A DNA stretch of 64,000 bases from Psammoneis japonica (lineage: Eukaryota): the NCBI GenBank assembly GCA_008632985.1, contig QPGO01000250.1:1-64000 (forward strand), read 5' to 3'. The notes below the pieces were generated by a model. The model was given only the letters and a program-made list of their open reading frames with translations, was not told the origin of the DNA and did not search any database. The translations under genes were made by a program, and so were the position numbers. Positions 2,569-33,547 of the stretch are shown in pieces; position 1 is the stretch's first letter; every line of letters begins with the position of its first letter.

Positions 2569-5500
2569 TCTTTTTGTTTCTTTGGACTTAGACTACGTGG
2601 ACATGGCGTGTTCGCACTGGAACTCAGCGGCCATTGTCACCGACTTTTTTGTGGTGACCGTGCAGCGTGCAGTGCGCATTTGCAAACGCGTCGGTCAACT
2701 CCGACCGACTTCTGACGACAGCATGACGACGCAAGCACGGACGCGCCGCGTTGGAGGGAGGAAAAAAATTCTAATTGGCTGCCATGCAGTCCTCAAAGCA
2801 ATCACATAATTTGTGTGATGAGCAGGGCACTGCAAACTGACACATCGTTTGCTCTCATCTTTCTCTCAGAGGAGGATTTGCAGACACCAGGAGTGCATGT
2901 GCACTTTTTGAAGGGCTTGAGTGCAACTCCAGTGGGGAAACCTTGGAGGCATGTTTCGCGAGATGACATCAGCTCTGCACAGGCTTTGGATTTTGGTGAG
3001 CTGTTGGTTGCATCGTCAGGGCGCCACTCAAAAAGTTGTTTCTCATGAGTTGTGGCATCACAGACAAGGGTGCAGTGGCTCTTGCACAGGGGCTCAAGAA
3101 AATCAAAAGCTTGAGAGCTGGCCAAATCTGGGTTCCTTGCAAGAGCTCAATTGGAGAAAAAGGACTTTCTGCAATGCTGGAAACAGGGAGAGGTTTGAGA
3201 GAGGCCTGACATTTTGGCAGCTTTCAAGTTGCAAAAGGTGGCTTGAGGAAATCTGGATGTTTGGGTGATTTGAGCTCAAACAACACGGTCTGACATCTGC
3301 TGCTGTGGCTGCAACTTGTGGACAGTCTCTTGTGATGAATCTGGCAGTTGTGCGTGCACAGATTTGTTTTTTGCTGCACAGCAGGTCCAGTTTGCTGCTG
3401 CACTGTGGACTTCAGCTGTTCATGCTGTGCAAGCCTGCGCTGCATGGTTGGTGCATCAGGCTAAAAAGCGAATCTGCAGAACGGAGTGCTGTCATTGGCA
3501 CAAAGACTTTGGCAGCTTGACACAAATGTGAAAAGCAGCAACATGCATGCCTTCTTCTTAAATTGTGTGTGCTGCACATTGTGAAAACCAACCACTTCTT
3601 TGCTCATGCCGCGCAAAGCTGCACATCAACCACCACATTCAAAAATTCAACTGTTGCTTGAGTTTGGACAAATCCATCAAAAGCACATGCGAGCTTTTGG
3701 CATCAAGAACATGTGAGGTTGTGCACTCAGCCTCCACCACAAATTCTCATGTTTCAGTCTTGTTTGTCATTTGCAAGTTGGTTGAAAGCAACTTGGCCAA
3801 CACAGGCCCTGGTCTGTCAACCATTTGGCAACACCGGCCAGCACACCAGGTCTGGAAAAATGCAAACACAAGAGAAAGCATCACAAGAGTTTGCAAAGCA
3901 ATGGCAATGACAAACAAAGCCCCCTTTTCCAAAACCAAGCTTGGCTTGCTTGTCTGCCCCAATGCACTTGACACCAATTCCCATGACAGCTCAATTGCAG
4001 GTTCCAGCCATTCATTCAGTCATTCACAATCCACTCAAGTTGGTGGCACAAATGTCCAACAGCTTTGGGGCTTTCTCATTCACAACACTGTCAATGAGTG
4101 TGGTTTCCAACACAACACCACAAAAGTGTGGGGACAGACCTGTTGTTGCAGGCACAGCAAACAAATGGCAGTGCAAGAGTGCAACAAACTTACAAAGCAG
4201 CAATGAGAGCATGCAAGACAGGTTTCAGATGACACACAATGTGCAAAAAGAATGTGCCACATGCACAACAAAACCAGCTGTCTTTTGTGCAGGGCATCAC
4301 ATGCCTTTCTGCAGCAACTCACTGCCATGGCACCCTGCCCTCCCTTTGCTTTGTTTGTTGCAGCTGCGACAAATGCATCCAGCACCCCAGTCACATGCAG
4401 ACTCTCCACATCAAACTTGGACAACACAACAGAACATGAAGAAGCCCACAGAATAAAAAGCAAAGTGTGTTTTTGCCATCAAGCTGAGCATGTGTCCATT
4501 CTGGACACTTGCTTCATGCAAGGACACCGTGTGGCAGCTTTGCACCCAGATGCACAGAATGATTCTGCAGACAAATTGATGTGCACAGCATCACTTTCAG
4601 TCTTCTCATCACAACCTGAGTGAGCATTTCTTCCTTTGAACTTGTCTTGACTTTTGCTGCACTTTGGTCAGTTGGCTTGCCACACACATCTCTGCAGTGC
4701 CAGCGTGGACACGTCAAAAGCCACTTTGGAGTTGCTTGTCCATTGACAAGGGTGGCAAACAATGCATGAATTTCAAGGCAATTGTGTGGAACAACACAGG
4801 CTCCTCTCTCTCTCCACATTGCAGTGCTGCACCTCTGTCCAAAATGTCACCATGCACATCTTGCACATCAGCACAAGGAATTGCTGTGTTGTGCAAGTCA
4901 CCACAACAAGTGTGATGCAACAATCAAACAATGCTCCAAGAAAATTCCCAATTTCACCCACGCAATGCTGCATGACAAGATGAGCAATGCATGACAAACA
5001 CAAAAAGGTGTGAGAGGTGTCAGAGCAACAGAGACAGCACAACTTTGAAACAACATAAAATGTTTCTCAAGACTGTCAACAATGCACTGATTCAGTCTAC
5101 CACAGATTTTGGATGAACCACCAGAGCACAAACTGACACAGCCTGTGGCTGAACAACAGCCATGACATGCTCAACAACGTTTTGCACCAGAGCTTGGCAC
5201 AAAAAATGATCAAGGGGCCACAAGAATTTGATTGACATGGTTGTTGGCAAGCTCGGGCATTGGGCATCACATCACCCACTTGCCCAGCTACATTTCAATG
5301 ACTGCACATGCAGACATGGACTTTGCATTCACACCACTTTGAAGACTGTTGCAAGAGGTGCACTGGAAAGGTTTGCTGCATTTTCCATTGTGCAGTTTAG
5401 CAGTTCAATGTAGATTCAAAATTTGCAATGACTGAAAGTTGCAAAATGAGATGGGTGCACATGCAGAGTGTTGCGAAGCAGCTGACTCCAAGCAAGTGCC

Positions 5501-7082
5501 TCATGCACCAAGAGTGTCAGCAAAGGAGCCATGATGCTGTTGCCTGTGACACAAGCAGTGTTCCCCAAGCCACACTTTGCAAAGCTTTGCAGTCCAACAA
5601 TGGTGTCTTTGCACAGTGTCACTCAGAACAGCATTGCGCTCCCATCTGCCTCCCCTGGATCACCTTCATCAGAATCAGCCTGTGCTCCCAGACTCTCATC
5701 ATCACTTTCAGCATCTGCGCATGATCCCCTGCTGCTTTCACCTTTGACATCACTTTCCTCATCATCTCCTTCAAAGCCATCTTTGGCGCCAGTGACCAAT
5801 GATCACCATCTCCAAGGCAGCATGTTGATCCTGAAATGTTGCCACACACAAGCAGACGCCCACACCAAGAACACTTTGCATGTTCCACCAGTGCACTCTG
5901 TGGCACAGCAGTGATCAGATGCTCTGATTGGCCCATGGAGTGTCTGTGAAATGGCAAGCTCACTTGCAGAGCTTTGCCGATTGCAGGACAAGGTCAGGGG
6001 TTCTCGATCCCTTTCTTTTCCACACACACATTCTTCTGCCCTCACTCCAATTCTGCCAGGTTTGGAGCCCCACAATGGACACAAGTCCATCTTTGGCAAC
6101 AATGTTGCTTGTGGCATGAGATGCCGGACATCACCGGCTACAAACTGCGTGGTCATCTGATTGGCAATTTGGGCAGCCTTGCCCAATTTTTTGGAATGTG
6201 AAGTGTGGCTGCATGTGCTCTACATTGGCTCAGATGATGTCACCTGCAAACTTGTGCAGGCAGCCTGCTGGGAAAGACATCCATCTGATTGCATCAAAAA
6301 TTGCCGACAGATGGTGTTTTTCTTGCTTGCTTGACTTTCTGTCTTTTGCATCTTGGACAATCACCTTCCTTTCATCTCTCTCACACCATCATTCACATCT
6401 GCATGGTCCAAACTGAAGACTGCCATTGACAGCCCCAATTGCCAGCATGCCCCTGGGACAGAAACCAGTTGGGTTGCAGTGCATGACCTTGGCCAAAGCA
6501 TTGGCTGAAGTTGGGTTGCTGCAGCTTTGCCAGTTGCAAGATTTGTCAAATCTGTTTGGACAGTGGTCACAGCTGGAGCCAACACATCGTGACAGTGCTT
6601 GCAACAACATTGGAGCTTTGCCTTGTCACCTGAACATGTGAGGAGGTTGCTGCTCAATTGACAGGTGAAGCTGCCAATCTTTGCCAAACTTTTGCCCCTC
6701 TGGTGCATGTCAAATGGGACAGCCCCACCATTCTCACACACGCTGCATGATCCATGGCCAAGACCAACTGCTGCTCGTCTCACTGTCCAAACATGAGCAA
6801 TGCCCAAGTTGAAAGACTGAAATGGAGGAAGTCGGAGAGTGGGGTGCAACAAATTAAATCAAACTCACTTTTTGAGTTTGTCCAACCTTTGCAAGTTTTG
6901 TTTCTTTTTCTTCATGCTTCAATGCCAACAAAGCCACCCCTTCCTCATGTTCATGGTGACAGACAACTTCACATCAAACATTGTGATCCAAGCATTCTCG
7001 CCACAGTTTTTGTGTTCAGAGACCTTCTTGCTCCTGGCTCAATTGAACAGGAGTGCTGATGATCCTTTTCCATGTGTCTGAC
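2569..7082. mobile_element. Dispersed ~4.5 kb repeat, copy 1 (degenerate unclassified element or segmental duplicate), TA/CG-depleted
   Basis: Colinear with 29460-33547 from ctttttgtttctttggacttagactacgtgg to gatccttttccatgtg; no protein domain recognised. Confidence 0.85.
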
Positions 7083-7916
7083 CAACACCACGTTGCACAC
7101 CTCAGACAAGGCACATGGCACCCCAACTTTCCCTTCCAGCAGCGCATCAGTTTTTTGGTTGATGGCTTGCAATCAACAAGCACCAATTCCTTCCTGTCCC
7201 TCACCTTCTCCTTTTTTTTCTGGCTGGACAGAATCTTTCCGTGAACGCACAAAGCATGGCAGCCGGCTTGTCATTGACCAAATCAGTTCCTTCACAAGAC
7301 GGTTGAAGCAAGCCATTCATGTCTGGATGACTTTAAACTGGGCATCGGAATGCAAACCAGCAAACACTGCCATCACCACAGCCACAGGACTGCAGTCCTC
7401 TAATGTCATCGCAACAAGAAGAGAAGGAGAGCACTTCAGATCACGTCTACATTTCACCTGAATCAAGTCACCATGACTCCTGATGAACAAATTTGTAGTC
7501 GGTTTTGTTGTGGTTGCAATCTTTTTTGTTTATATTACATTTTGAGCTCGTAAACGACAATGAAAACGACTCATGATTCAGTTTGCAGAAACTGGGCTGG
7601 AGACGTGGAATTGTCGGAAACAACAACAGAGCATCAGTTTACGATTGGTGATGAAGCCGTGACACGAAGTATAATAATATAAGCACAACATTATCATCCA
7701 GCTAGAGGGGTAGGTAAGGGTACCAATGCGTTATTTAATAAGTCTCGTTAGACTTCTCTGCCAAGACAAGGAGGATATACTCATGGCATAGGCACCGGTA
7801 GCTCGACAGCGAACGCAGAGCAAACATGCATGAGATCCCTATCCTGTTTGCTTTGCTGCTCCCAAACCCTAAACACACTTTCGCGAGTGCATAAGGTTTC
7901 GTGATCCGAGCATCGA

Positions 7917-9745: not shown

Positions 9746-12700
9746 CAAGTGACGATGTTCGAGCTTCGGGCACGTGTGTCGCGCAATGGACAGCTTGCGT
9801 ATGCCAAGGTGCGTGCGAGATCGTCTTCGACTGGGTTCGCAGTGCCGCAGAGCGTTGTAGAAGTTGGTTGGACGTCCCACGGTTGGTTGCGACTTGTGGT
9901 CGTTCGTGCGTGAAGGCAGATGCCTGTGTGTGTCCGTCCGCCGCATGCGGTGTGTCTTTGCAGAGCAGAAATAATGAGTCACTTGGGAAATGTCCAGCGA
10001 CATGGCAGTTGGACAGACACATGATGACACGACCACCTGTTGTTGCATGTTGTCAACGAGTGCATTTTGCTTGCACCTGGAACTTGGATGGTGGCTTCAT
10101 TGGTGACATTTCATGTGTCTCAGCATTTTGTTTGGCAACATCAGTGCTGCTTTTTTTTGCAACAGAGCAGTGCAAGCTTTTGCCATTTTTGCCCTGCACA
10201 CTTTTGTTTTCGCCCGTCATTCTCATTTTGGTGAGGTGTGACCTGGCCTGTGCAGACATTTTCAATCACGTGATGAGCACAGCAAGAAACAGATGGTGCT
10301 GCAGATTGTGTCATTGGCTCAGCACTGGCGAGCTGCCATTTGTTGATGGAGCAATGCGAGGAGGTGGCGCGACTTCCCGCGGAGGTCAGCCGGGATTTGG
10401 CTTTGTTTTGGGTGCACTTTGCAGTGCCCATTTGACAGACATGAGCAACACCTCAACCAGCAGCTTTGTTGATGTCAGCGGTGGGAAAAGTTGTCCTGTC
10501 ATCATGCGCAAACTGGCTTGTCCCAAAGGAAAACCATTTGGCATTGACCCGTCCCCTGAGAGGCACAAGGAAGGAAGAAATTGGGCAAAGAAAATGCAGG
10601 GACATGTCCATTGTCAGTTTCTGCTCAAATGTTGAAGATTTCGGTGAGCCGCAAAGTTGGAGAACAGCAAAAAGAGCTGCCAAAAAGGAGGGATTTGTGG
10701 TGCCACAAAGCTGCGCTGGAGAGCAAGAAGCAGAGTCAACAACAAAAAACTGAGGCCAACAAAAGTGGGAAGGTCAAGAGCTTCAAATGTCTGCTTTGAA
10801 GGCTTGTCAAGTCATTGGGTCCTGTGACAAAGTTGCGTCCATTGAAATCTTTGGTTGAGGCAGGAGAGTTGCAATTGTCTCAAAGGTTGGGAGAAAAATG
10901 GCTGTGACTGCACTGTGCTTCATGTTTGACAGACTCACGTGGTGTTTCAGATTTCATTCAACAGGTCATTTGAGCTCAACAAGCACACATTGCAGGCACA
11001 TGTGCCAGCAGAGACTGGCATGATTTGAGGGATTTAGTCACACTTTTCTTTGCAAAGGGAGGAAGCATCACAATGTTCCCTCAATTTTGTGGTGGCAAAA
11101 TTGAAGGGAGGTGAAGGAGTGATGTTGGGTGAGAACAGCGTGTCCACTCAGTTGGCTGTGTGGTGCAGAATTGCATGAAGACCAGCTTGTGACATTTTGT
11201 GAAGCTGCAAGTGTGCACATTGACAGCGCGCGGCAACTCTGCTGTGTGCAAACATTTTGAAGCTTCTTGCCGCTGGCAGCACACCCACTGTGGTTTTTGG
11301 TCATGACCATCTTTGGAGTGGGCACCCCAAAGGGGACCCCGCAGCACTCCAAAGAGCTTGCCAGGCACACAACATCCAAAGTGTTTGTTTTTGGTTCAGT
11401 GCGCAGGAGTGCAGTCAGTTTGGGACAATCACAGGCACACATTGAAAATCATTGTGAGCTGCAGCACAACAAAAAGCTGGGATGCTGACTTGTTTGCAGC
11501 AGAGGGTGCCTTTTTGTCATTTCTGGAGTGCAGCCCAGTGCTGCTCTCAAAATGTGGTTGGGGTGTGGTGGTTTGAAAAAATGTCCAGCAACCTTGGGGT
11601 TTCACCATGCCCAATTTGGACCTGTGTTGGCACGGCTTTTTGTTGACAATCCAAGACAAGTGAGGCAGAGTGGTGAAATGATCACCAACAACCAATCTCA
11701 AGCTGAGCAAATTGCCAGCTCTAATGAGGTGCAGACCTGGCACAGCACAACTTTTTTGGTCTTGTTTTTGTCACAGATTTCTGTTGCTTTTGAGTCCACA
11801 GGAGTTGGGTTTTCATGATGTTTGTTTGGAGCATTGCAAAGGAGCACATGGCTCTCTGTTTTTTAGAGTCAGTGTGGTTGTCCCAACACAGCATGGCTTG
11901 TTTGGGCATCAACCTTCATTGTTTGTTTGGATGGCTCATTTTGGGTGATGGATTGATGTTTGGTGTGCCCACAATCCTCGTCAAAGCAGCTGCGATGAGC
12001 CTCACTTTAACAAAGCTTTCTTTTCTGCCAATGATCTGGTGATGCTGCAAAGTGTGCCTTGATGCCAGAACAGAAGGCTTCAACATGTGGATCTCTTCTC
12101 TGCTGCCAGAGGATTAAAAGGGGAAGAGCTCAGTTTTTTTTTCTGCACAGAAGTTGATGAAGGCAAATTGAGTGCCACGTGTTGTTGTCCTTTTTGCCCA
12201 GTTGGCTTTTTGGGAGGGCACTTGGTGGGTGGCGTCACTTCAGCAGGCACATCTTTGCATCATGTGGTTTTGTTCCACCGCTTGGTCCTCAATTTTTTGT
12301 TTTCTGTTTTGTTGCTCATTCTGTGACCTCTTTTTCCTCTCAAATCATTTTTCCATGACCAAATTGTGAGGTTGTTGGTTTGTGCACTTTTGGATCAATG
12401 TTTGTTGCAGGAGCACAGCAGAGCCTGTTTTTTGCTTTTGGTTTGGCACAGACATCTCTGTTTCTTGGTTGAGAAGTCATGAGGACAAACAAATTTGGTG
12501 CTTTGACAGCTTTGTGAGTCAACACTTTGAATTGTCAAGTGGCCTGGATTGTAAATTTTCTCAAAACCACTCAAGAAAAATCAGCAAACAACCAAACTTC
12601 CCTTTTCACAGTGCACAAAGTCATCCATGGTGGCAGACATTGAGCTCACATGCTTGGTGTGCCAGCTCTTGTTGACCCACCAACTCAACAATGTCGTTGC

Positions 12701-12844
12701 AAGTTTTGCTGTCTGCAGGAACTTTTGTCAAGTTGTTTTCTCACCATGTGTTGCTGCCATGTCAATGGATCTGATGCTTGGAATTGAGGTTAGAAAAGTG
12801 GCAGAGAAGTGTCAACACTCATTGGCACTGTGCCAAAGTTGGGG

Positions 12845-13028
12845 TTGTCAAAGTCACAAAGTGTGTGGAGCATGGAGCCCTCAAGAAGAGAGTCAGAGCT
12901 GGAAAATGTGGTGGCCATTGTGGCTGTTTTGCTCAACAATGCTGAGATTGTCAAAGTCACAGAGTGCATGGAGCCTTTGCAAAGAGAGTCAAAGCTGGAG
13001 AATGGTGGCCATTGCAGTTGTTTTGCTC
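12845..13028. repeat. Imperfect direct repeat, ~103-bp period, 2 copies
   Basis: ttgtcaaagtcac...gagagtca.agctgga.aat..gtggccattg...tgttttgctc at ~12845 and ~12949. Confidence 0.8.
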
Positions 13029-15457
13029 TGCATCAAGCATCCCATGGAAAAAGCAGCACATGAGGAGCAGCACTTGAAAATGGCAACTTAATTCAGCCAG
13101 GAATGTTGGTCAATGCAAAGTGTCAGAAGTTGGCATCTGCTGCTCCTTGTGATCACCTGCTCCATTTTGTGGGTTTGGCTCATCCAGGTGCACTTCAAAC
13201 ACAGCAAGGTGAGCCCAAGCAGAAAGCCATGGATTCACAACATTGATCTGTGTTGTCAGAGTCAGGCCCATGTTTTTTTAACACCCAAGATGCTCAATGC
13301 ACATCAACCCAAAGTTGGGACAAGCATGTCAACATTGGAGCCAACCACATGTTGATGCTGGCAAATTTGGATTTTGGTCCAGGACATTGAGCCTTGCCTC
13401 CATTTTCACTGTTTTGTGAAGACTTCTCTGACAAAGTCTTTTTGCATGCATGGCCAATCCATCAACATGGGCAACAGCTTCAAAGTTGATGCCAAAAAGG
13501 TTTGTTGTGTTGTTGTGTGTTGTGACAGGTCCAAAGTTGGAAGCAAATCTGTGAGCTGCAAAAGCAAGCACACAAAATGAAGGCTTGTTTTTCACCTGCA
13601 TTCCAAGTTTTGCTGTGGAGGTGAGTTGTGTTCCCAAATGTCTTTGTGCTGGGAGCTTTGTCAACATGGAAATGCAGTCATCTTGAACAGCAAAGCACTT
13701 CTTCACAGCAGCCAACAGGTTTGCAGTTCACAGCTGGGGCAAGACATTGCTTGTTGGCTGAAGGTTTGAAATCCAAGGCAGAGTCTGGAGCCTTGTGTCA
13801 TGCATCAGCAGTGGTTGGGCAGTTGTCAGCTGGTGCAGCCAAAGGAGGCAAAACACAAGATGTCTCTTTTGTGGAAGGAGCCAGGCAGAAGCCACCAAGA
13901 AAAAAAACAATCACCTGCCCTCTTGAGGCAACAAGGATTTTTTCAAAAAGCAAAACAGATCTTGCTTCTGCTGCTCTCAAAGTTGTGACTGAAGCCCCTG
14001 CTGTGAGAAGAAAAACTCTTGAAATGGAGCACTTTGTTTTGGCAATGGGGGCATTGTCTCATCATTGTTCAAGTTGACTTGATCAAATTGCATGTTTTCC
14101 AGTGGCTGCACTTTTAAATTTTCACTTGTCAACCAACTTGCTTGGTGCTGTGCAAAACAAGTGTGCCACCCAGGGCTGGCCAAAGTTGAAGAGCATGTGC
14201 AGCCAAACATTTCACCGTGGGGCATTGAGAGAGCACCATTTTCAAAATTGTTTTCCTGACAAGATGACAAAACAACAACCCTTTCTGTCACCTTTCTACA
14301 AAGGAGCTGGTGCAGTGCATGCAAGACATGTTTTGCAAATGCTGCACAGGGGCTTCTTGTTTACAAAGCTGGAGCCATTTGCGATCCAATCAGCAAAGTT
14401 GTGAGTGACAAATGTTTCACTTGGGAAACAATTCATCCAATCAGTGTTGATGCCTGTGGTTTGGGACATCTTACAATGAGACTCTGATTGGTCACATGAC
14501 AGACCACAAATGCATGAAGAGCTGTCCTTCCATTTTTGGAAGATCTCAAATGTGCTTGTTGCACTGCTTTTATGCACACAACACATCTGCTCACAACTGC
14601 AAATGTGCGACATGTGCTGAACAGCCCTTTGACTGTTGTTGCACACCCTCAGAAGATGATGGTTTAAAAAAGTGTCAACGCAAGCAGCATTCATCGAATG
14701 TGTCTCCTGTCAACCCATTTGCATTTGTCACATCTGTCTCCCAATGCAAACATTGTTGTGCACTGTTAAATGTTTTCTCTCAAGTCATCAATCTTCTGTG
14801 TGTTTTGATTGCCACCAGAATTTTGACTGATGAATCAAATCCTGCCATGTGCCGAACAATGCCACACCAAAACAACCATGAAAAGTGCCTCATCGCCATG
14901 TTGAAATGCTTGAAAAACAGAGACTCTCTCAACCCACATGTGCCACATCCTTTTTACATGAGAGTGATTGACACGTGCGTGGCGCTGGTCTTGTCATTGT
15001 CAAACAATGGGCTGCGCATGTTGAGTGCAAAGTCAGAGGTGCGATTTTGCGATGGTTGCAAATGAACACCATGACGTCACACATTTGATTCTTTGGAAGG
15101 AAGTGCAAACCAAAACAGTTAAAAAATGCCTGGAGGTGCAACTTTGCAAGGACTGTTCTCAAAATTGTGTGCTGACAATTCTTCCAAAGTCCATCAGATC
15201 ATCTGCCATGGTGTGAACTTTCAATTGTGGAAGCATGAAAAAATTCTGTCAAGCCAGTTTTTTTTTAATTGCAAAAAACCGCTTGGCAACAGGTGCAAAA
15301 AATTTCATGCTGAGGGCAAAAAAGTGCATGATGGTGCCAGGTTTAGATGAGGGGGTTGGGTGTCGCCTTTCCGGGTCCCTCCCCAGAGTCAGCGATGTTT
15401 TGGTGTGGCATGCATTGAGCACCTGGTGGCTGCAACAGCACCAGTGTGGGCCTCATG

Positions 15458-16247
15458 ACACTCCACCACCCTTCTCAAAGTGTTCCCTGGGTGCTTTCAA
15501 AGAACTTCAATGCCCTTGGGATGGTTGGCTGCATCAGGATGTTCTTTCACTGTGGAGTTGGGGGTTTTGGCACTCACCATGGCATGGACCAAGTGACTGG
15601 GGGGTGCAAGTGCACCAGATGAGCCCTTCAATGCCCAACCTCCATTCTCAAAGTGTTTGTTGGGTTCCACCACTGGAAACCTTCAATGCCCTGAGCATGC
15701 AGTTGGTTGGTTGGTTGCATCAGGAAGATGCTCTTTCACTGGCAGCTTTGTCCAGAGCAGCTGCACTGGGCAAGTTGTGCAACTCTCAACTGCTGTTCTC
15801 AGTTGTTCTTTGGCTTCCACTTGGGATCTTCAATGCACCAGGTGGGCGCCTTGCAACACTCCACCACCCTTCTCAAAGTGTTCCCTGGGCACCTTCAAAG
15901 AACTTCAGTGCCCTCAGCATGCAGTTGTTGGGATGGTTGGTTGCATCAGGGTGTTCTTTCACTGTGTGGTGGTTGGGGTTTCAGCACTCACCATGGCATG
16001 GATCAAGTGACTGGGGGGTGCAAGTGCACCAGATGAGCCCTTCAATGCCCACCCTCCATTCTCAAAGTGTTTGTTGGGTTCCACCGGAAGCCTTCAATGC
16101 CCAGAGCATGCAGTTGGTTGGCCAGTTGCATTGGGAGGATGCTCTTTCACTGGCAGCTTTGTCTGGCGCAGCTGCACTGGGCAAGTTGTGCAACTCTCAG
16201 CTGCTGTTCTCAAGTGTTCCCTGGCTTCCGCTTGGGATCTTCAATGC
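15458..16247. repeat. Tandem duplication of ~400 bp with internal cttcaatgccc sub-repeats
   Basis: Units 15458-15836 and 15856-16247 both begin acactccaccacccttctcaaagtgttccctggg. Confidence 0.9.
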
Positions 16248-18665: not shown

Positions 18666-19352
18666 CAAGCAACCACCAAGTCAACCTGCCGTTTCTCACC
18701 AAATCGCTCTCCTGCCCTCAGGATCATTGCAAAAAGTTGCACTTTCGACACCATCGTGTCCGCCGTCATCGAATTAGGCTGGGTGCATCGAAGCACAACT
18801 TTTGACTGCAATCTCATTGAGTGATTTTGAAGTGTCAGCAGATGTCCACGCAACTCGTTTGAACAACATACCGTCATCCAAATGGCACTTTCATGAGGCA
18901 GAACTGAGACGCCTGAACAATGACATCTCCCAAAATCAAAGCCAGAATGCTGCACAGTGTTTGCAGTAGAAGAGGTGAGTGCATGAAGTGTGTGCAGCAC
19001 TGCACACAACGTGCAAATCGAGTCAGAACTTGCTTGCGACGCTGGTCATACAGTGCGTTCTTTTTTTACTCACACACGCTTCATTGTCGTCATGTTGTTC
19101 CCAGAATCATGTGCAGAGTGAACAAATGAATCCATGATGCAGAGTGAATCGACGCAAGTGGGCGATTTTGACGAGGACGGCGCGGGAGCATGCAGCAGCA
19201 GCAGGAAAACCCAGTCTGACGCATCTGGGAAGGGCCCGTGAGCAACGACTTGAGACAATGTGATGCAATGCCTCAAAGAGTGTCCATGTTCTCCTTGGCA
19301 AGGCTTCCTCAGTTATTTGTCTGCTGCCATGAGGAAGCAGAGCTCGTTGAAA

Positions 19353-19975
19353 ATGTCAAGAGACACGTTTCCCATGCTGACGCACAAGAATCTGGTCTCT
19401 GCAGAGGATTGTCTTGATGCGCATCAAGTGGCAGTGGCTGCAGGAAAAGAAAATGTTGTGTTTGTCGATGCGTCATGGCATCACAAGGGAGGAAGAATGG
19501 GTGGTCAATGCAAGAAGTGATTTGTGGCAGTGTTGAGAATCCGCACCTTGTCCTTGCAGTCTGGTTGTTTGGAGCAGACCACGAATTGAAGGTGCTCGAT
19601 GCATTGACACAAATGACATTGCAACATCTGAGGGGCTGCACCCTGAATTGAACCCAAAGGGGTTGCACAGAATGATGCCTCCACCAGCTGGGAGACGAGT
19701 GACTCATGGGTTGTTTCTCTTTGTTTTCACCAGTGGAGGTTCTTTGTTTTGGCAATGGTTGAACTTGAAACATTGGGAGATTTTGGGGTCCAAGTGTTCG
19801 AAGGAACAGGGTGCACAGAAATGTCCGAATGTCCCAATCTTTGTCTTGGGGACAAAGACAAAGACTGGCTGAATCCTTGGTCACAAGCCTGTGATCCCAA
19901 TGGAGAATTGCGAACGGGATCTGTCGCATCAGGAGAAACGATGTGTGTTGTGGAGAAGGTGCAATTGTGTCGATG
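19353..19975 (+). pseudogene. 3-mercaptopyruvate sulfurtransferase (rhodanese) relic
   Basis: LVSAEDCL...VVFVDASWHHK, then after a probable intron (~19517-19558) PRIEGARCIDTNDIATSEGLHPELNPKGLHRMMPPP (19579-19686), matching the MST pattern DASWY..IPGA.YFDID.I..LPHM.P; degenerate downstream. Confidence 0.75.
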
Positions 19976-20619
19976 AGACTGTGGTGAATTGTCAAGTGCA
20001 TGCATTTCACCTCAGATCTGTGTGTGAGACCACACTCGTGTAGATGTTGAGTTCACATTTTAGCAAAGTGTGGCCAGTGACTGCGACTGTGCTGGGGTGT
20101 CCTTTGAACAGGCCATTCATCGCACCCATCGATGCAACATCGCTGTGTTCGTGTTGCTTTCCTGGCTGCCACTTTGTCAGAGCCAGTCACTTTTTGGCCA
20201 AAGAGAGACGTTCTGTGAGCAACCAGGACACGTCCAGCATCAAGATTTGAATCAAGAGTCAGGAGCAGAAGCACTCCTGCCAATGCACAGCTGAGGAAGT
20301 TGAGCAAGCCAAGGAGGTTTGCGACCACATCGAGACCCTCAAGGCGACTGGCAATCGTCAAGGCTGTCGAACGAAAGCCAGGAGAGCCCGCGTCGCCTCT
20401 TGCGGATCCGGTGGAGGACACTGGATTGACGACATCGACAGTGCCAGAGCTTCATGTCCCAAACAACAGGCTCTCAATGCTCGAGCTGGGTGTGAGGAGC
20501 GCCCGTGACAAGGTCACAGAGGCCACAAAGAATGTTGTTGCCGACCAGTGAACACAACACTGTAACATGCTCAGGCACAAGAGCATAAAACCAGTGACAA
20601 GCACACTGTAAAATCGGTC

Positions 20620-21357
20620 TTGAAGTGGACCTTAACTGCTTTGTTCTGCGCAAATCCGCTCTTGACCATGACCGCCTGTGACGACTGGGATGATGTGGTG
20701 GCCTTCAAGGAAACCAACATTTGCGATGCCTGCGAATGCCACCTTACAAGTGGAGATGCTGGCCCGGGTCTACAAGGATCCACTGCCCTGTTCTTGCACA
20801 ATCATGGCATTTCCACACCTGGTTGGTTTGTCAGATTTGCCACTGTGCCCTGCGGCAACGTGTTTGACATCACAGGGTACGAAGGCCACAAGAGCCTTGG
20901 AAGCGACGCCATCCGTATCAGGGCCTACGGAAAATGCCTGTCAGAAGTGCCGATAACTGAGTTAGATGCTGGCAGTGTCTTGGGATTCAACAGAGAACAT
21001 TTCACTGCATTTGAGAAACAGAACCTGCTTGCCATTTGCCGAGAAATCCAAGATGCATCCAACAAATGGCAGTCGCAGGAAGCCTTGAGAACTTCCAATC
21101 AAGGAGGTAAACCACTTGACACCCCGGCAAACCCCCTGTTCTTCGGCACCTTCACCCCAGGTTCCACACACACCCCAAGATGCCATGGAACGGCTGGAGA
21201 CACCCATGCTCCATCCACGGGCTCCACTCCTGCGAGTCCAAACCGCCCCTGCACACCAGGGGCGACCGCGAGGTTGGGGTCAACCACGATCCCTACTTTG
21301 CACCAATGCCCATCGGGACCACTAACCAATTCAGATCATGTAAGTTGTTCCTCCTAA
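20620..21357 (+). other. Degenerate ORF at a domain edge, possibly an LTR-retrotransposon gag-like N-terminus
   Basis: 245-aa ORF with a globular-looking part and a Pro/Thr-rich tail; no pol motifs follow. Confidence 0.2.
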
Positions 21358-22209
21358 AAGAAAAAGTACCTCGTCTGTCTCGCGCTCACCTCAGCTCTTC
21401 ATTCACGTCCACGAACCACACAGATTGTTATTTACGGCAAGAAGGGGACAATTTTTACTCCACGAACATGGTTTCAATTCCAGACTGTGAGTCAAGATGC
21501 ATCAGCTCATTGTTAATGCAGGGCAGTTTGGAGGAGTTGATCAAGGCGGGCGGACCACATGAGACTGAACCAACAAGAGCCATGAGCGCAGAAGACCCCG
21601 ATCCATTATGTCAAACACGAGATCCTGTTCTTGTCATGGACACGAAGGTGATGTTGCAAACTGTAGATGAGAAGGAATCGCTCACATTAGATCCACGCGG
21701 ACAATTGGTTGAAACTGAAACCAACGCAAGAGCTTCTGGATATTTTTAACAAGGTTGAGGTTGACATTGCTGCCGAGAAACAAACAGCATGCTCTTGTGG
21801 AAGTGACGTTAGTGCATGCCGCATTTTGCTTGCGGATGGCGTCATGGTGATGAACGCAAAACTGTAATGTATGATGGAAGTCATCAAGAAAGGAACATGG
21901 ATCCAGATACTCCGAAAGCTGTCACCAAAACACCAGGTCATGACTTACTTTAATATCAAGCATGCTATCTATTCTTACTTTTAAATGCACAGTGTCGCTC
22001 ACAATAGCCTATAGCCCACACTGACACAGCGCCCCTACACAAGCAAGGAAGAAGCAAACAACGGATGTCGAGGAGAGTGACGATGGTGAGGATTCAGACT
22101 TTGAAATTGAAGAGGACGAATGGAAAGAATCAGACTGTTACTCTAGGTAGTATGGTAGAAATGATAATTAAGCATCACCGCGAAACGGGCGTGCATTGGC
22201 ACTCGGCGA

Positions 22210-22650: not shown

Positions 22651-22945
22651 GGTCACTTCATCGATCTCGTTATCGACGAATACAAGGCAAATGAAAAAGT
22701 TACCCCCCATTTTAAGACCGCCGTAACACCCTCTATCGACTAAGGTAACTCTCGTTTCGATCCAAGAGAATTCGTCTCTACGTGATTTCTACGGCGTCCC
22801 CTCCCATAGCAGCCCGCAGCCCGGGGAGGTGCAGCAGCACAGCACCATCACACTGCAGAGCCTTCTGCTTTTGTTGGGACTGCTCGCTGTCAAAGTTAGA
22901 GTCTCCTTTTCTGTCATTGGCGTGACTTGTAGTCTATTGAACACA

Positions 22946-23900
22946 ATGGAACGCCGTCCCAAACGCAAGGCTGCCGAAGCGGCATCGACGGCCACGAAAC
23001 AAATGCGAATGCACGAGGACGCGCCCGACGAGGACGAATATGATTCACAACTTCACGAGAACGCTGCGGCCGCTTCCACTCCGTGCTTTGTATCCGAAAC
23101 GGCTACACTCTCCCATGAGCTTGGATTGCTTGTGTTTGATTTTCTACCAAAGCGCGAGCTTGTCCATGGCGCATCTATGGTGTGCAAGTCTTGGCTCGCA
23201 GCCACGCGGAATCCGAGTCTGTGGCGGGCACTGGAAGCAGATATCTGGAGAGAATCAAGCGAAAGCGGTCGTTTCTCCATGAAGAGTTTTATTTCCTTTC
23301 TCCATCGTCCACAATTTGCGTTGCTCCAAAAATTGGTGCCTCCGGATCTCTACAGAACCTTTTCACCCAACGTTTTTGACAGCATTGCTGCGGCAATCGG
23401 TGAGCATTTGGAGGAGTTTGATCTCTCGGGATCCACTTCGAAATACAGTTTGGCGCTGCCAGTGGCAGTTGTTAATGACGAAGAACTCCTTCGAATTCCT
23501 ACTCTCTTTCCAAAGCTCAGAAAGGTCTCCATCTGTTTGAGACGTGTGCGTGAAGAGACCCTGGTGCAGTTCATTCAAGTCATGGGGGATCGCCTCGAGA
23601 GTCTCAAAATTGTGACGCACAACATTGAAGCTCATATCTGCACCGACGCAACTCTAACGGCGCTAGCTCAAAACTGCCCCAACTTGGAGTGTGTTCTACA
23701 CAAGCACAAAGGACATCTGAAGCTTTTATGGGGGAAGCCCTTTTACGTCTCAAGCCATGGTTGGTGTACTTGAGAGTTGCCAGAAGTTACGGATCTTTGA
23801 TCTTGACACAGTTTCGAATGATGCGGCAAACGTGCTTTTTGACTTCCTACGCCCTCGCAACTTTCTCGGTCTCGATCTCTCGTATTACGAATCGGCGTGA
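22946..23900 (+). CDS. F-box/LRR-repeat protein with an apparent frameshift near 23758
   Basis: ATG at 22946; F-box LSHELGLLVFDFLPKRELVHGASMVCKSW...PSLW; LRR-like repeats (LTALAQNCPNLE); LRR-like sequence continues in another frame as VGVLESCQKLRIFDLD...YESA to TGA at 23900. Confidence 0.75.
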
Positions 23901-24129: not shown

Positions 24130-25030
24130 CTAAAACTGTTTTTCAGTCACACCCGCACCCACTTTTGGTGTGTCAGGAGCTCCACCTTGCGGTCACGCTC
24201 TTTGCGCTGAATGTTTTGGACATAGGCCAGCATGCCACGGTCTCCAAAGGAACGAGCAAGTTCTGTAATGATGAGGCCATTGGAATGGAATCCAGCCAGC
24301 GTAATGAACTGCCAAGCGTATCCAAGACGACCCAAGTCGTCATTGAAGGAGGCGAGCTCTGCGTCCGTCATGCCAGACGCGTCCCAGTTGAAACTCGGGC
24401 TGAGATTGTATGCCAGCATTTGATGAGGATACATTTTCTAAGCGTGAACAGAGAAGGAAAAGACATTAGGTAAGTGGATGGCTTCATAGAATAACAAGCC
24501 TGCAACGACGCAGTACACGAAAATCCATATTATGCGGCCACACACCTTGACACCCTCTGAAAACTTGCGAGCCTCGGGAATACCAGGCTTGGCGGTTTCC
24601 ATCCAAATGAGATCCGCATACGGTGCATACGCCCTGGCACGTTGAATGCAATAATCGATGCCAGTCTTGAGGCGGTAGTATCCCTCACGGACACGGCAAA
24701 GCTCCCAGTCAAGGTAGACCGAATTCTTTTCTCCAAAAATCGAGTCTGCAATCCTGCGCGCTTTGGCATTGCTGAGGGTGTTGGGATCACTTGCTTGCCA
24801 CCGCTGCACCATTTGCTGCTTTTGCGCACTCGACACATTGAGGGATGCAATCTTGGCCAAAACACGGCCTCTCCAAAGGTCATGAGATTGGCCCGCTTGG
24901 TCCATTCTTGCGTCGCACGGTTGACATCCTTGGCTCCCGCCACAGCGTCACGGAGAGATCCAACACCGCGAGTCGTAACGCCCAGAATAAAGGGATGGAC
25001 GCTTCCGTCCACATTGGAATCCAACTTCCG
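24130..25030 (-). pseudogene. ICL: Isocitrate lyase 3' fragment (5'-truncated, frameshifted, internally deleted)
   Basis: [57 protein letters not shown] intron 24545-24438; frameshift near 24862; terminal GAGVTEKQF* out of frame; no KKCGH active-site region. Confidence 0.92.
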
Positions 25031-29459: not shown

Positions 29460-32400
29460 TCTTTTTGTTTCTTTGGACTTAGACTACGTGGACATGGCGT
29501 GTTCGCACGGGAAGTCAGCGGCCATTGTCACCGACTTGTGGTGACCGTGCAGTGCGCATTGGCAAACGCGTCGCGGTCGACTCACTCGACTGACTTCTGA
29601 CGACTGCATGACGACGCAAGCACGGACGCTGCGTTGGAGGGAGCACGCGACGGAAAAGAATTCTCATTGGCTGTCATGCAGTCCTCAAAGCAATCACACA
29701 GTTTGTGTGATGAGCAGGGCACTGCAAACTGACACATCGCTTGCTCTCGTCTTTCTCTCAGAGGAGGATTTGCAGACACCAGGGGTGCATGTGCACTTTT
29801 TGAAGGGCTTGAGTGCAACTCCAGAGTGTGGAAACCTTGGAGGTGTGTTTCATGAGATGACACCAGCTCTGTGTGGGCTTTGCCCTTTGGTGAGCTGTTG
29901 GTTGCATCATCAGGGCACCACTCAAAAAGCAGTTTCTCATGAGTTGTGGCATCACAGACAAGGGTGCAGTGGCTCTTGTGCAGGGGCTCAAGAAAATCAA
30001 AAGCTTGAGAGCTAGCCACAAATCTGGGTTCCTTGCAAGAGCTCCATTGGCGAGAAAGGACTTTCTGCAATGCTGGAAATGGGAAGAGATCACAGCCAAA
30101 CAACCACTTTTGTCTTGATTTGCCTGGTCAGACTTGCAACTGCAGCTCACCAGAAGCAAACATGAGCAATCTGATTCATTTCTTTTTCTCACTCAGCCAC
30201 GCTGGCCATCCACATGTGATGTGGGAGATGTGTCTGCACCAGCTGCCTTGTGGCTGTGCATCATGTGGGCAAAAGGAGGAGACATTGACTGTGACCCAAG
30301 TGTGGTGCTTGCAATGGTTTGAGAGAGGCCTGACATTTTGGCAGCTTTCAAGTTGCAAAAGTCTGGAAAAATGCAAACACAAGAAAAAGCATCACAAGAG
30401 TTTGCAAAGCAATGGCAGTGACAAACAAAGCCCCCTTTTCCCAAACCAAGCTTGGCTTGCTTGTCTGCCCAATGCACTTCATGCAAATTCCCATGACAGC
30501 TCAATTGCAGGTTCCAGCCATTCATCGAGCCATTCATCCATTCAAGTTGGTGTGGCACAAATGTCCAACAGCTTTGGGGCTTTCTCATTCACAACACTGT
30601 CAATGAGTGTGGTTGCCAACACAATGCCACAAAGTGTGGGGACAGACCTGATGCTGCAGGCATGGCAAACAAATGGCAGTGCAAGAGTGCAACAAACTCA
30701 CAAAGCAGTGATGAGAGCATGCAAGACAGGTCTCAGATGACACACAATGTGCAAAAAGAATGTGCCATGTGCACAACAAAACCAGCTGTCTTCTGTGCAG
30801 GGCATCACATGCCTTTCTGCAACAACTCCTCACTGCCATGCCCCCCCTGCCCTTCCTTTGCTTTGTTTGTTGCAGCTGTGACAAATGCACCCAGCACCCC
30901 AGTCACATGCAGGCTCTCCACATCAAACTTGGACAACACAACAGAAAATGAAGAAGCCCACAGAATGAAAAGCAAAGTGTGTCTTTGCCATTGAGCTGAG
31001 CATGTGTCCATTCTGGACACTTGCTTCATGCAAGGACACTGTGCAGCAGCTCCACACCCAGATGCACAGAATGGTTCTGCAGACAAACTGACATGCACAG
31101 CATCACTTTCTGTCTTCTCATCACAACCTGAGTGAGCATTTCTTCCTTTGAACTTGTCTTGACTTTTGCTGCACTTTGGTCAGTTGGCTTGCCACACATG
31201 TCTCTGCAGTGCTGGCATGGACATGCCAAAAGCCACTTTGGAGTTGCTTGTCCATTGACAAGGGTGGCAAACAATGCATGAATTTCAAGGCAATTGTGTG
31301 GAACAACACAGGCTCCTCTCTTTCCACATTGCAGTGCTGCACCTCTGTCCAAAATGTTGCTGCGCACATCTTGCACACCAGCACAAGGAATTGCTGTTGT
31401 GAAAGCCACCACAACAAGTGCGATGCAACAATCAAATGATGCTTCAAGAAAATTCCCAATTTCACCCACGCAATGCTGCATGAGAAGATGAGCAGTGCAT
31501 GACAAACACAAAAAGGTGCGGCAGGTGTCAGAGCAACAGAGACAGCACAACTTTCAAACAACACACAATGTTTCTCTCAAGACTGTCAATGATGCACTGA
31601 TTCAGTCTCCCACAGATTTTGGGTGAACCACCAGAGCACAAACTGACACAGCCTGTGGCTGAACAACAGCCATGACATGTGCTCAACAATGTTTTGCACC
31701 AGAGCTTGGCACAAAAAATGATCAAAGGGCCACAAGAACTTGATTGACAGGATTGCTGGGAAGCTCGGGCATTGCACATCACATCACCCACTTGCTCAGC
31801 TGCATTTTAATGTTTGCACATGCAGACATGGACTTTGCATTCACATCACTTTGAAGACTGTTGCAAGAGGTGCACTGGAAAGGTTTGCAACCTTTTCCAT
31901 TGCACAGCTCAGCAGTTCAATGTAGATTCAAAATTTGCAATGACTGAGAGTTGCAAAATGAGATGGATGCACATGCAGAGTGTTGCAAAGCTGCTGACTC
32001 TAAGCAAGTGCCTCATGCACCAAGAGTGTCAGCAAAGGAGCCATGATGCTGTTGCCTGTGACACAAGCAGTGTTCCCCAAGCCACACTTTGCAAAGCTTT
32101 GAGTCCAACAATGGCGTCTTTGCACAGCGTCACTCAGAATGGCCTTGTGCTCCCATCTGCCTTCCCTGGATCACCTTCATTGGAATCAGCCTGTGCCCCC
32201 AGACTCTCATCATCACTTTCAGTGTCTGCACATGAGCCCCGCCAACTTCACTTTTGACATCACTTTCCTGATCATCTCTTTCAAAGCCATCTTTGATGCC
32301 AGTGACCAGTGACTGCAATCTCCAAGGCAGCATGTTGATTCTGAAACATTGCCACACACAAGCAGACACCCACACCTGGAACACTTTGCATGTTCTGTTG

Positions 32401-33547
32401 GTGCACTGTGTTGTGCAGCAGTGATCAGATGCTCTGATTGGTCCACAGTGTGTCTGTAAAAAGGCAAGCTCAGTGGCAGAGCTTTGCCGATTGCAGGATG
32501 AGGTCAGGGGTTCTTGATCCCTCCCTTTTCTTTGCTTCTGCCCTCACTCCAATTGTGCCATGTTTGGAGCCACACAATGGGGACACAAGCCCATCTTTGG
32601 CAATGATGTTGCTTGTGGCATGAGATGCCGGACATCGCTGGCTGCAAATTGCATGGTCATCTGACTGCCAATCTGGGCAGCCTTGCCCAATTTTTTGGAA
32701 TGGGAAGTGCAGCTGCATGTGCTCTACATTGACTCAGATGATGTCACATCCACAAACTTGTGCAGGCAGCCAGCTGGGAAAGACATCCATCTGCGTGCAT
32801 CAAAAATTGCCAACAGATGTTTTTTCTTGACTGCTCAACTTTCTGTCTTTTGCATCTTGGACAATCACCTTCCTTTTCATCTCTCTCACACCATCACTCA
32901 ATTGTCAGCATGCCCCTGGGACAGAAACCAGTTGGGTCGCAGTGCATGACCTTGGCCAAAGCATTGGCTGAGATTGGGTTGCATGCTGCAGCTTTGCCAG
33001 TTGCCAGATTTGCCAAATCTGTTTGGACAGTGGTCACAGCTGGAGCCAACACATCGTGACAGCGCTTGCAACAACATTGGAGCTTTGCCTTGTCACCTGA
33101 ACATGTGAGGAGGTTGCTGCTCAATTGACAGGTGAAGCTGCCAATCTTTGCCAAACTCTTGCCCCTCTGGTGCATGTCAAATGGGACAGTCCCACCATTC
33201 TCACACACACTGCATGATCCATGGCCAAGACCAACTGCTGCTCTCACTGTCCAAACATGAGCAATGCCCAAGTTGAAAGACTGAAATGGAAGAAGTTGGA
33301 GAATGGGGTGCAACGAATTAAATCAAACTCACTTTTTGAGTTTGCCCAACCTTTGCAAGTTTCATTTCTTCCTCTCCATGCTTCAATGCCAACAAAGCCA
33401 CCCCTTTCTCACATCAATGGTGACAGATGACTTGACATCGAACATTGTGATCCAAGCAATCTCACAACAGTTTTTGTGTTCAGAGATCATTCTTGCCCCT
33501 GGCTCAATTGAACAGGAGTGCTGGTGATCCTTTTCCATGTGCCTGAC
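29460..33547. mobile_element. Dispersed repeat copy 2, same orientation as 2569-7082, TA/CG-depleted
   Basis: Colinear with copy 1; lacks copy-1 segment ~3238-3849 and carries ~30088-30316, which copy 1 lacks. Confidence 0.85.

What the first reader, a model, noticed from the sequence alone, without database searches (positions are those of the whole stretch)
2569..33547. Two copies of a 4-kb repeat lost TA sites independently and resolved the same sites in opposite directions
Seen: TA kept in copy 1 but lost in copy 2 (agctacattt ~5288 vs agctgcattt ~31799; cagaataaaa ~4450 vs cagaatgaaa ~30961; aacttacaaa ~4187 vs aactcacaaa ~30696). The reverse also occurs (actctaagc ~31997 vs actccaagc ~5485; ttttaatg ~31805 vs tttcaatg ~5292; ctgtaaa ~32454 vs ctgtgaa ~5944). 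Many TG<->CA double differences are present (cttgcacagg vs cttgtgcagg; gccacatgc vs gccatgtgc). Inference: a shared TA or CG ancestor was mutated on opposite strands in each copy after duplication, so the ancestral element can be partly reconstructed from the TG/CA mismatches.
Basis: partly seen in the sequence, partly recalled or inferred. Interest (0 to 1): 0.85.

Follow-up and report, generated by a model that had tools for sequence, protein, structure and literature searches.

The report
Duplicated repeat records TA and CG erasure
Two copies of a 4-kb stretch of silent diatom DNA differ at 40 places where one reads CA and the other TG, showing that a process turning TA and CG steps into TG or CA went on in both copies after they were duplicated, although most of the erasure had happened before.

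Summary
The two copies (2569-7082, 29460-33547) are 92.8% identical over 3825 aligned columns, and all eight quoted examples are present.

In the TA/CG-poor part there are 40 CA<->TG double differences, against 2.97+-1.70 in 5000 shuffles. Single TA-versus-CA/TG differences are not enriched. They are rarer (11/744) than background transitions (65/1579; p=6e-4).

- A duplication-time sequence without any TA or CG is rejected.
- 774 TG/CA steps are shared against 40 discordant, so an estimated two thirds to four fifths of the conversion predates the duplication.
- Two copies cannot tell a TA ancestor from a CG ancestor.
- Up to about 15-18 of the doubles may be later CA->TA/CG->TG cycling.
- No coding frame emerges.

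The host is a diatom. The window holds several sharply bounded islands with TA at 2.9/kb against 39.6/kb in normal DNA. Both copies spare the same left ~190 bases, so aiming follows a cis-defined domain, not repeat homology.

The closest known case is TpA hypermutation in Bigelowiella natans (2026 preprint). This scan had already noted the phenomenon on other DNA of this genome.

The parts
2569..7082 (.). Repeat copy 1 (4514 bases)
   Evidence: Local alignment and blastn to copy 2
29460..33547 (.). Repeat copy 2 (4088 bases), direct orientation, about 26.5 kb downstream
2569..2759 (.). Left end of copy 1 that is spared: dense CG up to 2749, TA at 2589 and 2594
   Evidence: Site lists. 17 CG/CG and 2 TA/TA are shared with copy 2, and only 3 CG sites differ
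29460..29651 (.). Left end of copy 2, spared over the homologous stretch (dense CG up to 29651)
   Evidence: copy 1 position 2760 aligns with copy 2 position 29652
2760..7082 (.). TA/CG-erased part of copy 1: 14 TA, 37 CG, 566 CA, 470 TG in 4323 bases
   Evidence: 1-kb profile shows TA o/e 0.03-0.08 and CG o/e 0.09-0.20
29652..33547 (.). TA/CG-erased part of copy 2: 7 TA, 22 CG, 502 CA, 440 TG in 3896 bases; it ends at the repeat end (next TA at 33551)
3238..3849 (.). Segment present only in copy 1 (2 TA, 9 CG, 74 CA, 79 TG). Whether it is an insertion in copy 1 or a deletion in copy 2 is not decided
   Evidence: a contig of run X1 joins 3236 to 3850
30089..30315 (.). Segment present only in copy 2 (0 TA, 1 CG)
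3000..3206 (+). Only family match inside the repeat: a weak LRR_6 match (E 1.9e-4, 21.7 bits, below the 23.4-bit cut-off). The homologous ORF in copy 2 (29894-30115) scores E 0.037
7083..7333 (.). Flank right of copy 1 with 0 TA and 6 CG in 251 bases, so the TA-free state runs about 250 bases past the repeat end here

Best explanation
A 4.1-4.5 kb non-coding or no longer recognisable element lies twice in a diatom chromosome, inside sharply bounded islands in which TA and CG steps have been rewritten to TG or CA.

Most of the rewriting had already happened in the common ancestor of the two copies. After the duplication the remaining TA and CG steps went on being converted independently in each copy, hitting either strand, and newly arising TA steps were removed again. 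This left 40 sites where one copy reads CA and the other TG.

Two processes are inferred:
1. Deamination of methylated C at CpG in silenced DNA.
2. A TpA-specific A:T-to-G:C hypermutation of the kind shown experimentally in Bigelowiella natans, probably adenine deamination by an enzyme not yet identified.

Aiming follows a domain defined in cis, probably a chromatin or methylation state, and not repeat homology, because both copies spare the same left ~190 bases.

Shown here: the counts, the excess of doubles, the shared border, and the deficit of single TA differences. Inferred: the direction of change, the chemistry, and the chromatin basis.
For: - Doubles: 40 against 2.97+-1.70 expected, no TA<->CG doubles.
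- Shared state: 351 TG/TG and 423 CA/CA against 40 discordant.
- Model: a root without TA or CG is rejected by 12 or more log-likelihood units.
- Single TA-versus-CA/TG differences: 11/744 against background 65/1579, Fisher p=6.3e-4. This is as expected if new TA is quickly erased. CG singles are at background (28/775, p=0.65).
- Mass balance over 27,975 island bases against 32,106 normal bases: TA 2.9 v 39.6 per kb, CG 15.4 v 54.5, CA 114.9 v 72.6, TG 112.2 v 75.5. The loss is 75.8 per kb and the gain 79.0 per kb (sums mine).
- TA erasure is separate from CG decay and more complete: island 16501-20500 keeps 138 CG but only 19 TA.
- Border: it lies at the homologous place in both copies. The left part keeps 17 CG/CG with 3 differing, while the erased part keeps 6 with 32 differing.
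- Replicate: a tandem pair in another island shows 4 CA<->TG doubles among 24 mismatches in 283 columns.
- Host: a diatom. The isocitrate lyase exon's named best hits are Mediolabrus, Cyclotella, Thalassiosira and Nitzschia, at 73-77% identity.
- Literature: TpA->TpG/CpA de novo hypermutation is documented in B. natans (preprint 10.64898/2026.01.13.699255; abstract, Results part 1 and passages read). TE methylation in diatoms: PMC9998398, passages only.
Against: - No outgroup copy could be obtained, so no single difference is polarised. The direction of change rests on composition, on the border and on the preprint.
- The unconstrained model prefers zero creation of new TA or CG and puts 34 of 40 doubles on CG ancestors. 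Under that fit, post-duplication TA erasure is needed only for about 26 root TA sites.
- The model assumes exchangeable sites, and it mis-predicts TA/TA (0.2-0.4 expected, 3 seen) when background creation is imposed.
- The background rate (YpY transitions, 4.1%) may itself be raised in the island. The spared left part shows 0 of 62, which is too few sites to tell.
- No methylation or chromatin data exist for this DNA.
- The element has no recognisable origin. Only a sub-threshold LRR_6 match was found among the 87 ORFs scanned from the two copies, and 103 ORFs from the window's other islands gave no family.
- Divergence along the repeat is uneven: 86.6% to 97.0% identity per 300 bases, chi-square p=3e-4. 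Gene conversion may have blurred the record.
Confidence: 0.6

Rival explanations
1. CpG decay alone made the post-duplication differences. All TA loss predates the duplication, and no TA-directed process has acted on the two copies since. The doubles are the classical TG/CA outcome of 5mC deamination on opposite strands.
For: The unconstrained model puts 34 of 40 doubles on CG ancestors. CG-versus-TG/CA singles (32) outnumber TA singles (11). 11 of the 31 doubles with unchanged flanks lie in contexts with a 5' T or 3' A, where TA erasure is slow or one-sided.
Against: Single TA-versus-CA/TG differences are 2.8 times rarer than background transitions (p=6.3e-4), which calls for removal of new TA. 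That fit has TA loss slower than CG loss (0.56 against 0.78). This conflicts with every island of the window, where TA is depleted more than CG. 20 of the 31 doubles lie in the flank class favoured for TA.
Confidence: 0.2
2. One reading: the copies were duplicated while still rich in TA, then lost their TA sites independently, so the discordant sites let the ancestor, including a Tyr-rich ORF, be rebuilt.
For: Doubles are 13 times chance. TA is kept in either copy at 11 sites, 7 in copy 1 and 4 in copy 2.
Against: Independent unbiased resolution would make discordant and concordant converted sites about equal. Instead there are 774 shared TG/CA steps against 40 discordant, and the model places only 73-130 TA+CG sites at the duplication, against about 343 expected from normal DNA density (arithmetic mine). 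No coding signal was found: the period-3 signal is 2.5 or less in the repeat against 3.1-32.7 in ORF 54808-58758, Pfam gives nothing but a sub-threshold LRR_6, and ORF 6364-6858(-) has 1 hit at E 8.6e-5 among 1.84 billion representatives.
Confidence: 0.08
3. Artefact: modified bases in silent DNA were systematically miscalled during assembly, or the two copies are a mis-assembly, so the TA-free state and the doubles are not in the real DNA.
For: The library type of the only public run holding the stretch is not on record, and that run may be the assembly's own source.
Against: 58 of 166 contigs of run X1 laid on 2300-7400 are 99% or more alike, and the run holds 0.64 of the sampled words. The flanks of the two copies are unrelated normal DNA. 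The borders are sharp and the mass balance is exact to within about 4%. The same signature is an experimentally verified mutation process in another alga.
Confidence: 0.04
4. The doubles are single tandem-base events (CA to TG in one step, for instance by an error-prone polymerase or a 2-base inversion) and have nothing to do with TA or CG intermediates.
For: CA and TG are reverse complements, so a 2-base inversion would give exactly this difference. There are no TA<->CG doubles.
Against: This offers no reason for the near-absence of TA and CG in the same DNA, or for the exact mass balance. The other adjacent double transitions number 11, close to chance. Tandem substitutions are a small share of mutations in known spectra (general knowledge, not tested here).
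Confidence: 0.03

Closest known systems
TpA-specific hypermutation of integrated NCLDV and virophage DNA in Bigelowiella natans (Mettrop et al., bioRxiv 10.64898/2026.01.13.699255; abstract, Results part 1 and passages read)
   Same: TA is turned into TG or CA on either strand. It happens in confined regions of silent DNA, at rates orders of magnitude above background. The long-term signature is TpA depletion with CpA+TpG enrichment.
   Different: Here the host is a diatom (a stramenopile), not a chlorarachniophyte. The target is an unrecognisable repeat, not a virus. CG is erased in the same domain; the words 'CpG' and 'diatom' do not occur in the preprint's main text. Here the evidence is comparative, not from mutation-accumulation lines. 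A flank rule (TTAA largely spared) is seen here, and the preprint's main text has no occurrence of 'TTAA', 'flanking' or 'context'.
Repeat-induced point mutation (RIP) of Neurospora and other ascomycetes (details recalled; mentioned in passages of PMC9998398, and of the preprint)
   Same: A dinucleotide-specific transition process that ruins repeated or foreign DNA and leaves sharply bounded compositional islands.
   Different: RIP makes TpA from CpA (C:G to T:A). Here TA is destroyed (A:T to G:C). RIP covers the duplicated stretch, whereas here the left ~190 bases of both copies are spared.
CpG decay in methylated repeats, for example vertebrate Alu or L1 copies (general knowledge, recalled)
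   Same: CG becomes TG or CA depending on the strand deaminated. Paralogous copies show TG-versus-CA discordance at former CpG sites.
   Different: CpG decay does not touch TA. Here TA is depleted even more than CG: 2.9 against 39.6 per kb for TA, 15.4 against 54.5 for CG.

Membership tests
TpA->TpG/CpA hypermutation (B. natans type) | Changes are A:T->G:C transitions confined to TpA | tested here: inconclusive
   Composition and mass balance fit. The two-copy comparison cannot polarise changes or separate TA from CG ancestors.
TpA->TpG/CpA hypermutation (B. natans type) | Rate far above the genomic background, confined to bounded regions | tested here: met
   Sharp islands are seen. Model-based TA loss is 1.1-2.8 per lineage against about 0.02 background transitions per site, or 55-135 fold (ratio mine, and model-dependent).
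TpA->TpG/CpA hypermutation (B. natans type) | Targets are foreign DNA (viral or transposon-derived) | tested here: inconclusive
   The 87 ORFs scanned from the two copies gave no family match passing Pfam's cut-off, only a sub-threshold LRR_6. The 103 ORFs scanned from the window's other islands gave no family at E<=0.01.
TpA->TpG/CpA hypermutation (B. natans type) | De novo mutations observed in mutation-accumulation lines | not testable with these tools
   Needs cultures and resequencing.
RIP | C:G->T:A at CpA, giving TpA excess | tested here: not met
   TA o/e is 0.01-0.08 in the erased parts and CA+TG o/e is 1.85-2.08.
RIP | Mutation covers the duplicated sequence, recognised by homology | tested here: not met
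   The left ~190 duplicated bases are spared in both copies.
RIP | Dependence on a RID/DNMT4-type enzyme, acting before meiosis | not testable with these tools
   No genome is held for this window. Diatom DNMT4 is related to RID according to PMC9998398 (passages).
CpG decay by 5mC deamination | CG depletion with matching TG/CA excess, and TG/CA discordance between duplicates | tested here: met
   CG o/e is 0.05-0.20 in both copies. There are 32 CG-versus-TG/CA singles and 40 doubles.
CpG decay by 5mC deamination | The region is cytosine-methylated | not testable with these tools
   No methylome is at hand.

The most novel reading that the evidence does not exclude
A TpA-erasing mutator is still, or was until recently, active in this diatom. 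It is aimed by a cis-inherited domain border and not by repeat homology. The paired copies clock it at 50-fold or more above the background transition rate, fast enough to re-erase new TA and to drive CA<->TG cycling in already erased DNA.
Probability: 0.45. Interest if true: 0.7.

Novelty: new member of a known kind. Interest (0 to 1): 0.6.

Why it matters
If this holds, TpA-directed hypermutation is not a peculiarity of one rhizarian alga. It also shapes diatom genomes, which suggests a wider genome-defence process in the SAR lineages.

A duplicated target gives something that single islands cannot:
- An internal clock, comparing erasure with neutral divergence.
- Proof that the process outlasted the duplication.
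- A test of aiming: the shared spared end speaks for a chromatin-type border and against homology sensing.

There is also a practical consequence. In such islands, transposon and gene relics lose Tyr, Arg and stop codons, so standard annotation fails. Naive back-mutation of TG/CA mismatches is two-fold ambiguous.

Tried and rejected
- Whole-genome search for further copies: no genome is held for this window (one search was a mistyped reference).
- In-window third copies: blastn and tblastx found none.
- Public runs: one DNA holder (X1, share 0.64); no RNA holder listed.
- Laying contigs: this gave only short pieces and a truncated table (420 differences not shown). It hints at more than two copies but gives no usable outgroup.
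- Two scans of metagenome contigs with primer-length patterns degenerate at the YpR steps: 0 matches each.
- Scan index by sequence: 0 look-alike windows.
- Coding tests, all on unchanged window ORFs:
  - Pfam on 87 ORFs of the repeat (all 65 ORFs of 50 aa or more from copy 1, and 22 of 54 from copy 2): only a sub-threshold LRR_6 and chance-level hits.
  - Pfam on 103 of 127 island ORFs of 85 aa or more: 0 families at E<=0.01.
  - Period-3 signal: absent.
  - HMMER of ORF 6364-6858(-) against 1.84 billion representatives: 1 hit at E 8.6e-5, none at 1e-10 or better.
  - ORF 20566-21354: no homologue among 560 candidates.
- Rfam and tRNA scans of the window: nothing.
- I did not build back-mutated sequences. 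The marked sites are about 1% of the element, each is ambiguous between TA and CG, and altered sequence cannot be handed to the search tools.
- Strand bias: weak. The discordant sites split 28:12 (p=0.017), the runs test gives P=0.054, and the CA fraction in the islands is 0.46-0.55. I draw no mechanism from it.
- GT..AG ends of the copy-1-only segment: the deletion is 613 bases, not a clean intron. Rejected.
Full report
**What is there.**
The window is eukaryotic and comes from a diatom.
- ORFs carry F-box, isocitrate lyase, sulfatase and FG-GAP matches.
- The isocitrate lyase exon at 24441-24947(-) finds 225 relatives. The named ones among the best 120 are diatoms (Mediolabrus, Cyclotella, Thalassiosira, Nitzschia and others, 73-77% identity; best unnamed hit 82%).
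- No whole genome is held for this window.
- Over the whole window TA stands at 0.33 of expectation, CG at 0.63 and CA/TG at about 1.5.

A 1-kb profile shows this is not uniform. Sharply bounded islands have TA o/e of 0.00-0.11 and CA+TG o/e of 1.7-2.1. They alternate with gene-bearing DNA at TA o/e of 0.5-0.8. The islands lie at about 2760-7330, 10000-20500, 29650-33550, 37500-39300, 45000-48000, 50000-52000 and 61800-64000.

Over 27,975 island bases against 32,106 normal bases, the densities per kb are:

| Step | Islands | Normal DNA |
|---|---|---|
| TA | 2.9 | 39.6 |
| CG | 15.4 | 54.5 |
| CA | 114.9 | 72.6 |
| TG | 112.2 | 75.5 |

The TA+CG deficit (75.8 per kb) equals the CA+TG excess (79.0 per kb) to within about 4% (sums mine). 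CG loss varies between islands while TA loss is always near-complete. For example, 16501-20500 keeps 138 CG but only 19 TA.

**The repeat.**
Copy 1 (2569-7082) and copy 2 (29460-33547) are direct, with unrelated flanks. They are 92.8% identical over 3825 aligned columns. Copy 1 has about 612 extra bases (3238-3849) and copy 2 has 227 (30089-30315). No third copy lies in the window.

Every quoted example is present. The dinucleotide matrix for the erased part (copy 1 from 2760) reads as follows:

| State in the two copies | Sites |
|---|---|
| TG/TG | 351 |
| CA/CA | 423 |
| CA versus TG | 40 (28 with CA in copy 1, 12 the other way) |
| TA versus TG/CA | 11 |
| CG versus TG/CA | 32 |
| TA/TA | 3 |
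| CG/CG | 6 |
| TA versus CG | 0 |

The 40 doubles compare with 2.97+-1.70 (maximum 11) in 5000 shuffles of the 210 transitions over 3647 columns. All other adjacent double transitions together number 11.

The first refutation test is only half passed. Positions in YpR steps differ more often (9.5% against 5.1%), but the excess is made up entirely of the doubles. With conserved neighbours, the single differences are:
- CA versus TA: 11 of 744 (1.5%).
- CG versus TG: 28 of 775 (3.6%).
- Background YpY transitions: 65 of 1579 (4.1%).

TA singles are therefore significantly rarer than background (Fisher p=6.3e-4). CG singles are at background (p=0.65).

**What the doubles mean.**
Two routes give a CA/TG double.
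- Route (a): a TA or CG still present at duplication is resolved on opposite strands in the two copies.
- Route (b): in DNA already converted, an ordinary transition makes a new TA or CG from CA. The fast process then resolves it to TG.

I fitted a four-state model (TA, CG, TG, CA; two equal branches; free root) to the matrix.
- With rates free, it sets creation of new TA or CG to zero. It places 26 TA and 104 CG at the root, and the doubles come 6 from TA and 34 from CG (negative log-likelihood 1031.1).
- With creation fixed at the measured background (4.1% pairwise, C->T to T->C ratio of 1 to 3), the root holds 30-51 TA and 23-47 CG. The doubles split 13-22 from TA, 3-9 from CG and 15-18 from cycling (1036.9-1038.6).
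- A root with no TA or CG fits far worse (1050.6-1074.6). With fixed background it yields only 16-20 doubles.

So route (a) is needed for at least about half of the doubles. Route (b) may supply up to about 15-18. The TA:CG split is not identifiable from two copies.

The fits with background creation have TA loss faster than CG loss (1.3-1.4 against 0.4-0.5 per product). This agrees with the window-wide pattern. The free fit has the reverse (0.56 against 0.78).

Flank classes give a weak independent hint. I kept the 31 doubles whose flanks are the same in both copies and dropped the other 9. Of those 31, 20 have neither a 5' T nor a 3' A. That share (65%) lies between the one for normal CG (49%) and what TA-route sites should show. 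The doubles therefore look like a mixture.

**Before or after duplication.**
If all conversion had been independent and unbiased, converted sites would be discordant as often as concordant. Instead 774 TG/CA steps are shared against 40 discordant.

Normal DNA density predicts about 343 TA+CG in 3647 bases (arithmetic mine). The model leaves 73-130 of these at the duplication. So an estimated 62-79% of the erasure predates the duplication. This assumes the element once had normal composition.

After duplication, loss per lineage is modelled at 1.1-2.8 for TA and 0.75-1.55 for CG, against about 0.02 background transitions per site. That is some 55-135 fold and 36-75 fold respectively (ratios mine, and model-dependent).

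**Borders.**
- In both copies dense CG and the first TAs persist over the left ~190 bases (to 2749 and to 29651). The erased state begins at the homologous position (2760 aligns with 29652).
- In that left part 17 CG/CG and 2 TA/TA are shared, and only 3 CG sites differ.
- On the right, copy 2's island stops at the repeat end (TA at 33551). Beside copy 1, the flank 7083-7333 has no TA and 6 CG.

A mechanism that senses duplicated sequence, as RIP does, should have hit the left end too. The shared spared end points to a domain border carried in cis, such as a methylation or chromatin state. This is an inference; no such data are at hand.

**What the element is.**
Unknown.
- Of the 87 ORFs scanned from the two copies, only one weak LRR_6 match appears, below the curated cut-off.
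- There is no period-3 signal: 2.5 or less, against 3.1-32.7 in the 1317-aa ORF at 54808-58758.
- ORF 6364-6858(-) has one marginal hit among 1.84 billion representatives.
- The long open frames are expected, because TAA and TAG cannot occur without TA.

**Comparison with what is known.**
The closest case is the 2026 preprint on Bigelowiella natans. There 230 of 231 de novo mutations in two integrated viral regions were A->G or T->C, and all of these fell on TpA. The rate was about 1000 times background, and the authors propose an adenine deaminase. Its main text does not contain the words diatom or CpG.

Full-text searches for diatom with 'repeat-induced point mutation' (13 papers) and for diatom with TpA and dinucleotide (19 papers) listed nothing that describes this; I saw the listings only. 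[quoted passage not shown] It also reports that diatom DNMT4 is related to the RIP enzyme RID. This fits the CG half of the pattern.

RIP itself runs the opposite way and fails two defining features here. Earlier notes of this scan had already described the TA-erasing pattern on other pieces of this genome and pointed me to the preprint. I checked the diatom assignment, the co-occurring CG decay and the flank rule myself.

**Verdict.**
- The pair is a useful natural experiment on a process that is newly described in another lineage and apparently undescribed in diatoms.
- It does not allow the ancestor to be rebuilt, and most of the erasure was not independent.

Noticed in passing
All islands of the window (27,975 bases): Surviving TA sites follow a flank rule. 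Relative to normal DNA density, TTAA is kept at 0.66 (24 sites), CTAA/TTAG at 0.20, GTAA/TTAC at 0.10, CTAC/GTAG at 0.085, CTAG and ATAA/TTAT at 0.06, and GTAC and ATAC/GTAT at 0.01. ATAT and ATAG/CTAT are at 0. An additive rate by the base 3' of the target A (T about 2.65, C about 2.2, G about 1.4, A about 0.2; my arithmetic) reproduces most classes.
   Followed up: partly
All islands; contexts VTAA: Products are asymmetric. The excess of VCAA is 24.7 per kb against 9.6 per kb for VTGA. So in VTAA the T next to V changes (equivalently, the A followed by a non-A on the other strand). The baseline is taken from mostly coding normal DNA, so this is only suggestive.
   Followed up: partly
window 15551-16247: A tandem pair (period about 411-414 bases) lies inside another island. 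It has 283 aligned columns and 24 mismatches, of which 8 sit in 4 CA<->TG doubles. This is a small replicate of the finding.
   Followed up: partly
window 16501-20500: This island has TA nearly gone (19) but CG largely kept (138; o/e about 0.55-0.59). TA erasure does not need complete CG decay.
   Followed up: partly
window 5569-6168 and 6469-6768: Identity between the copies is uneven: 86.6-88.6% in the first stretch against 97.0% in the second (chi-square over 300-base bins p=3e-4). Possible causes are gene conversion or local rate differences.
   Followed up: no
window 54808-58758 (+), with 56079-56330: A 1317-aa open frame has a strong period-3 signal, no Pfam match and an internal 36-base tandem repeat of 5 copies.
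   Followed up: no
window 24150-24947 (-), 44412-44819 (-), 22727-23770 (+), 39630-40748 (+), 47979-48314 (+): Genes in the normal DNA: isocitrate lyase exons, a sulfatase fragment, two F-box-like ORFs, and an FG-GAP repeat ORF at the edge of an island.
   Followed up: no
window 20001-22000 and 60001-62000: Zones of intermediate depletion (TA o/e 0.19-0.40, CG o/e 0.60-0.80) lie at island edges. They may be younger or partly erased DNA.
   Followed up: no
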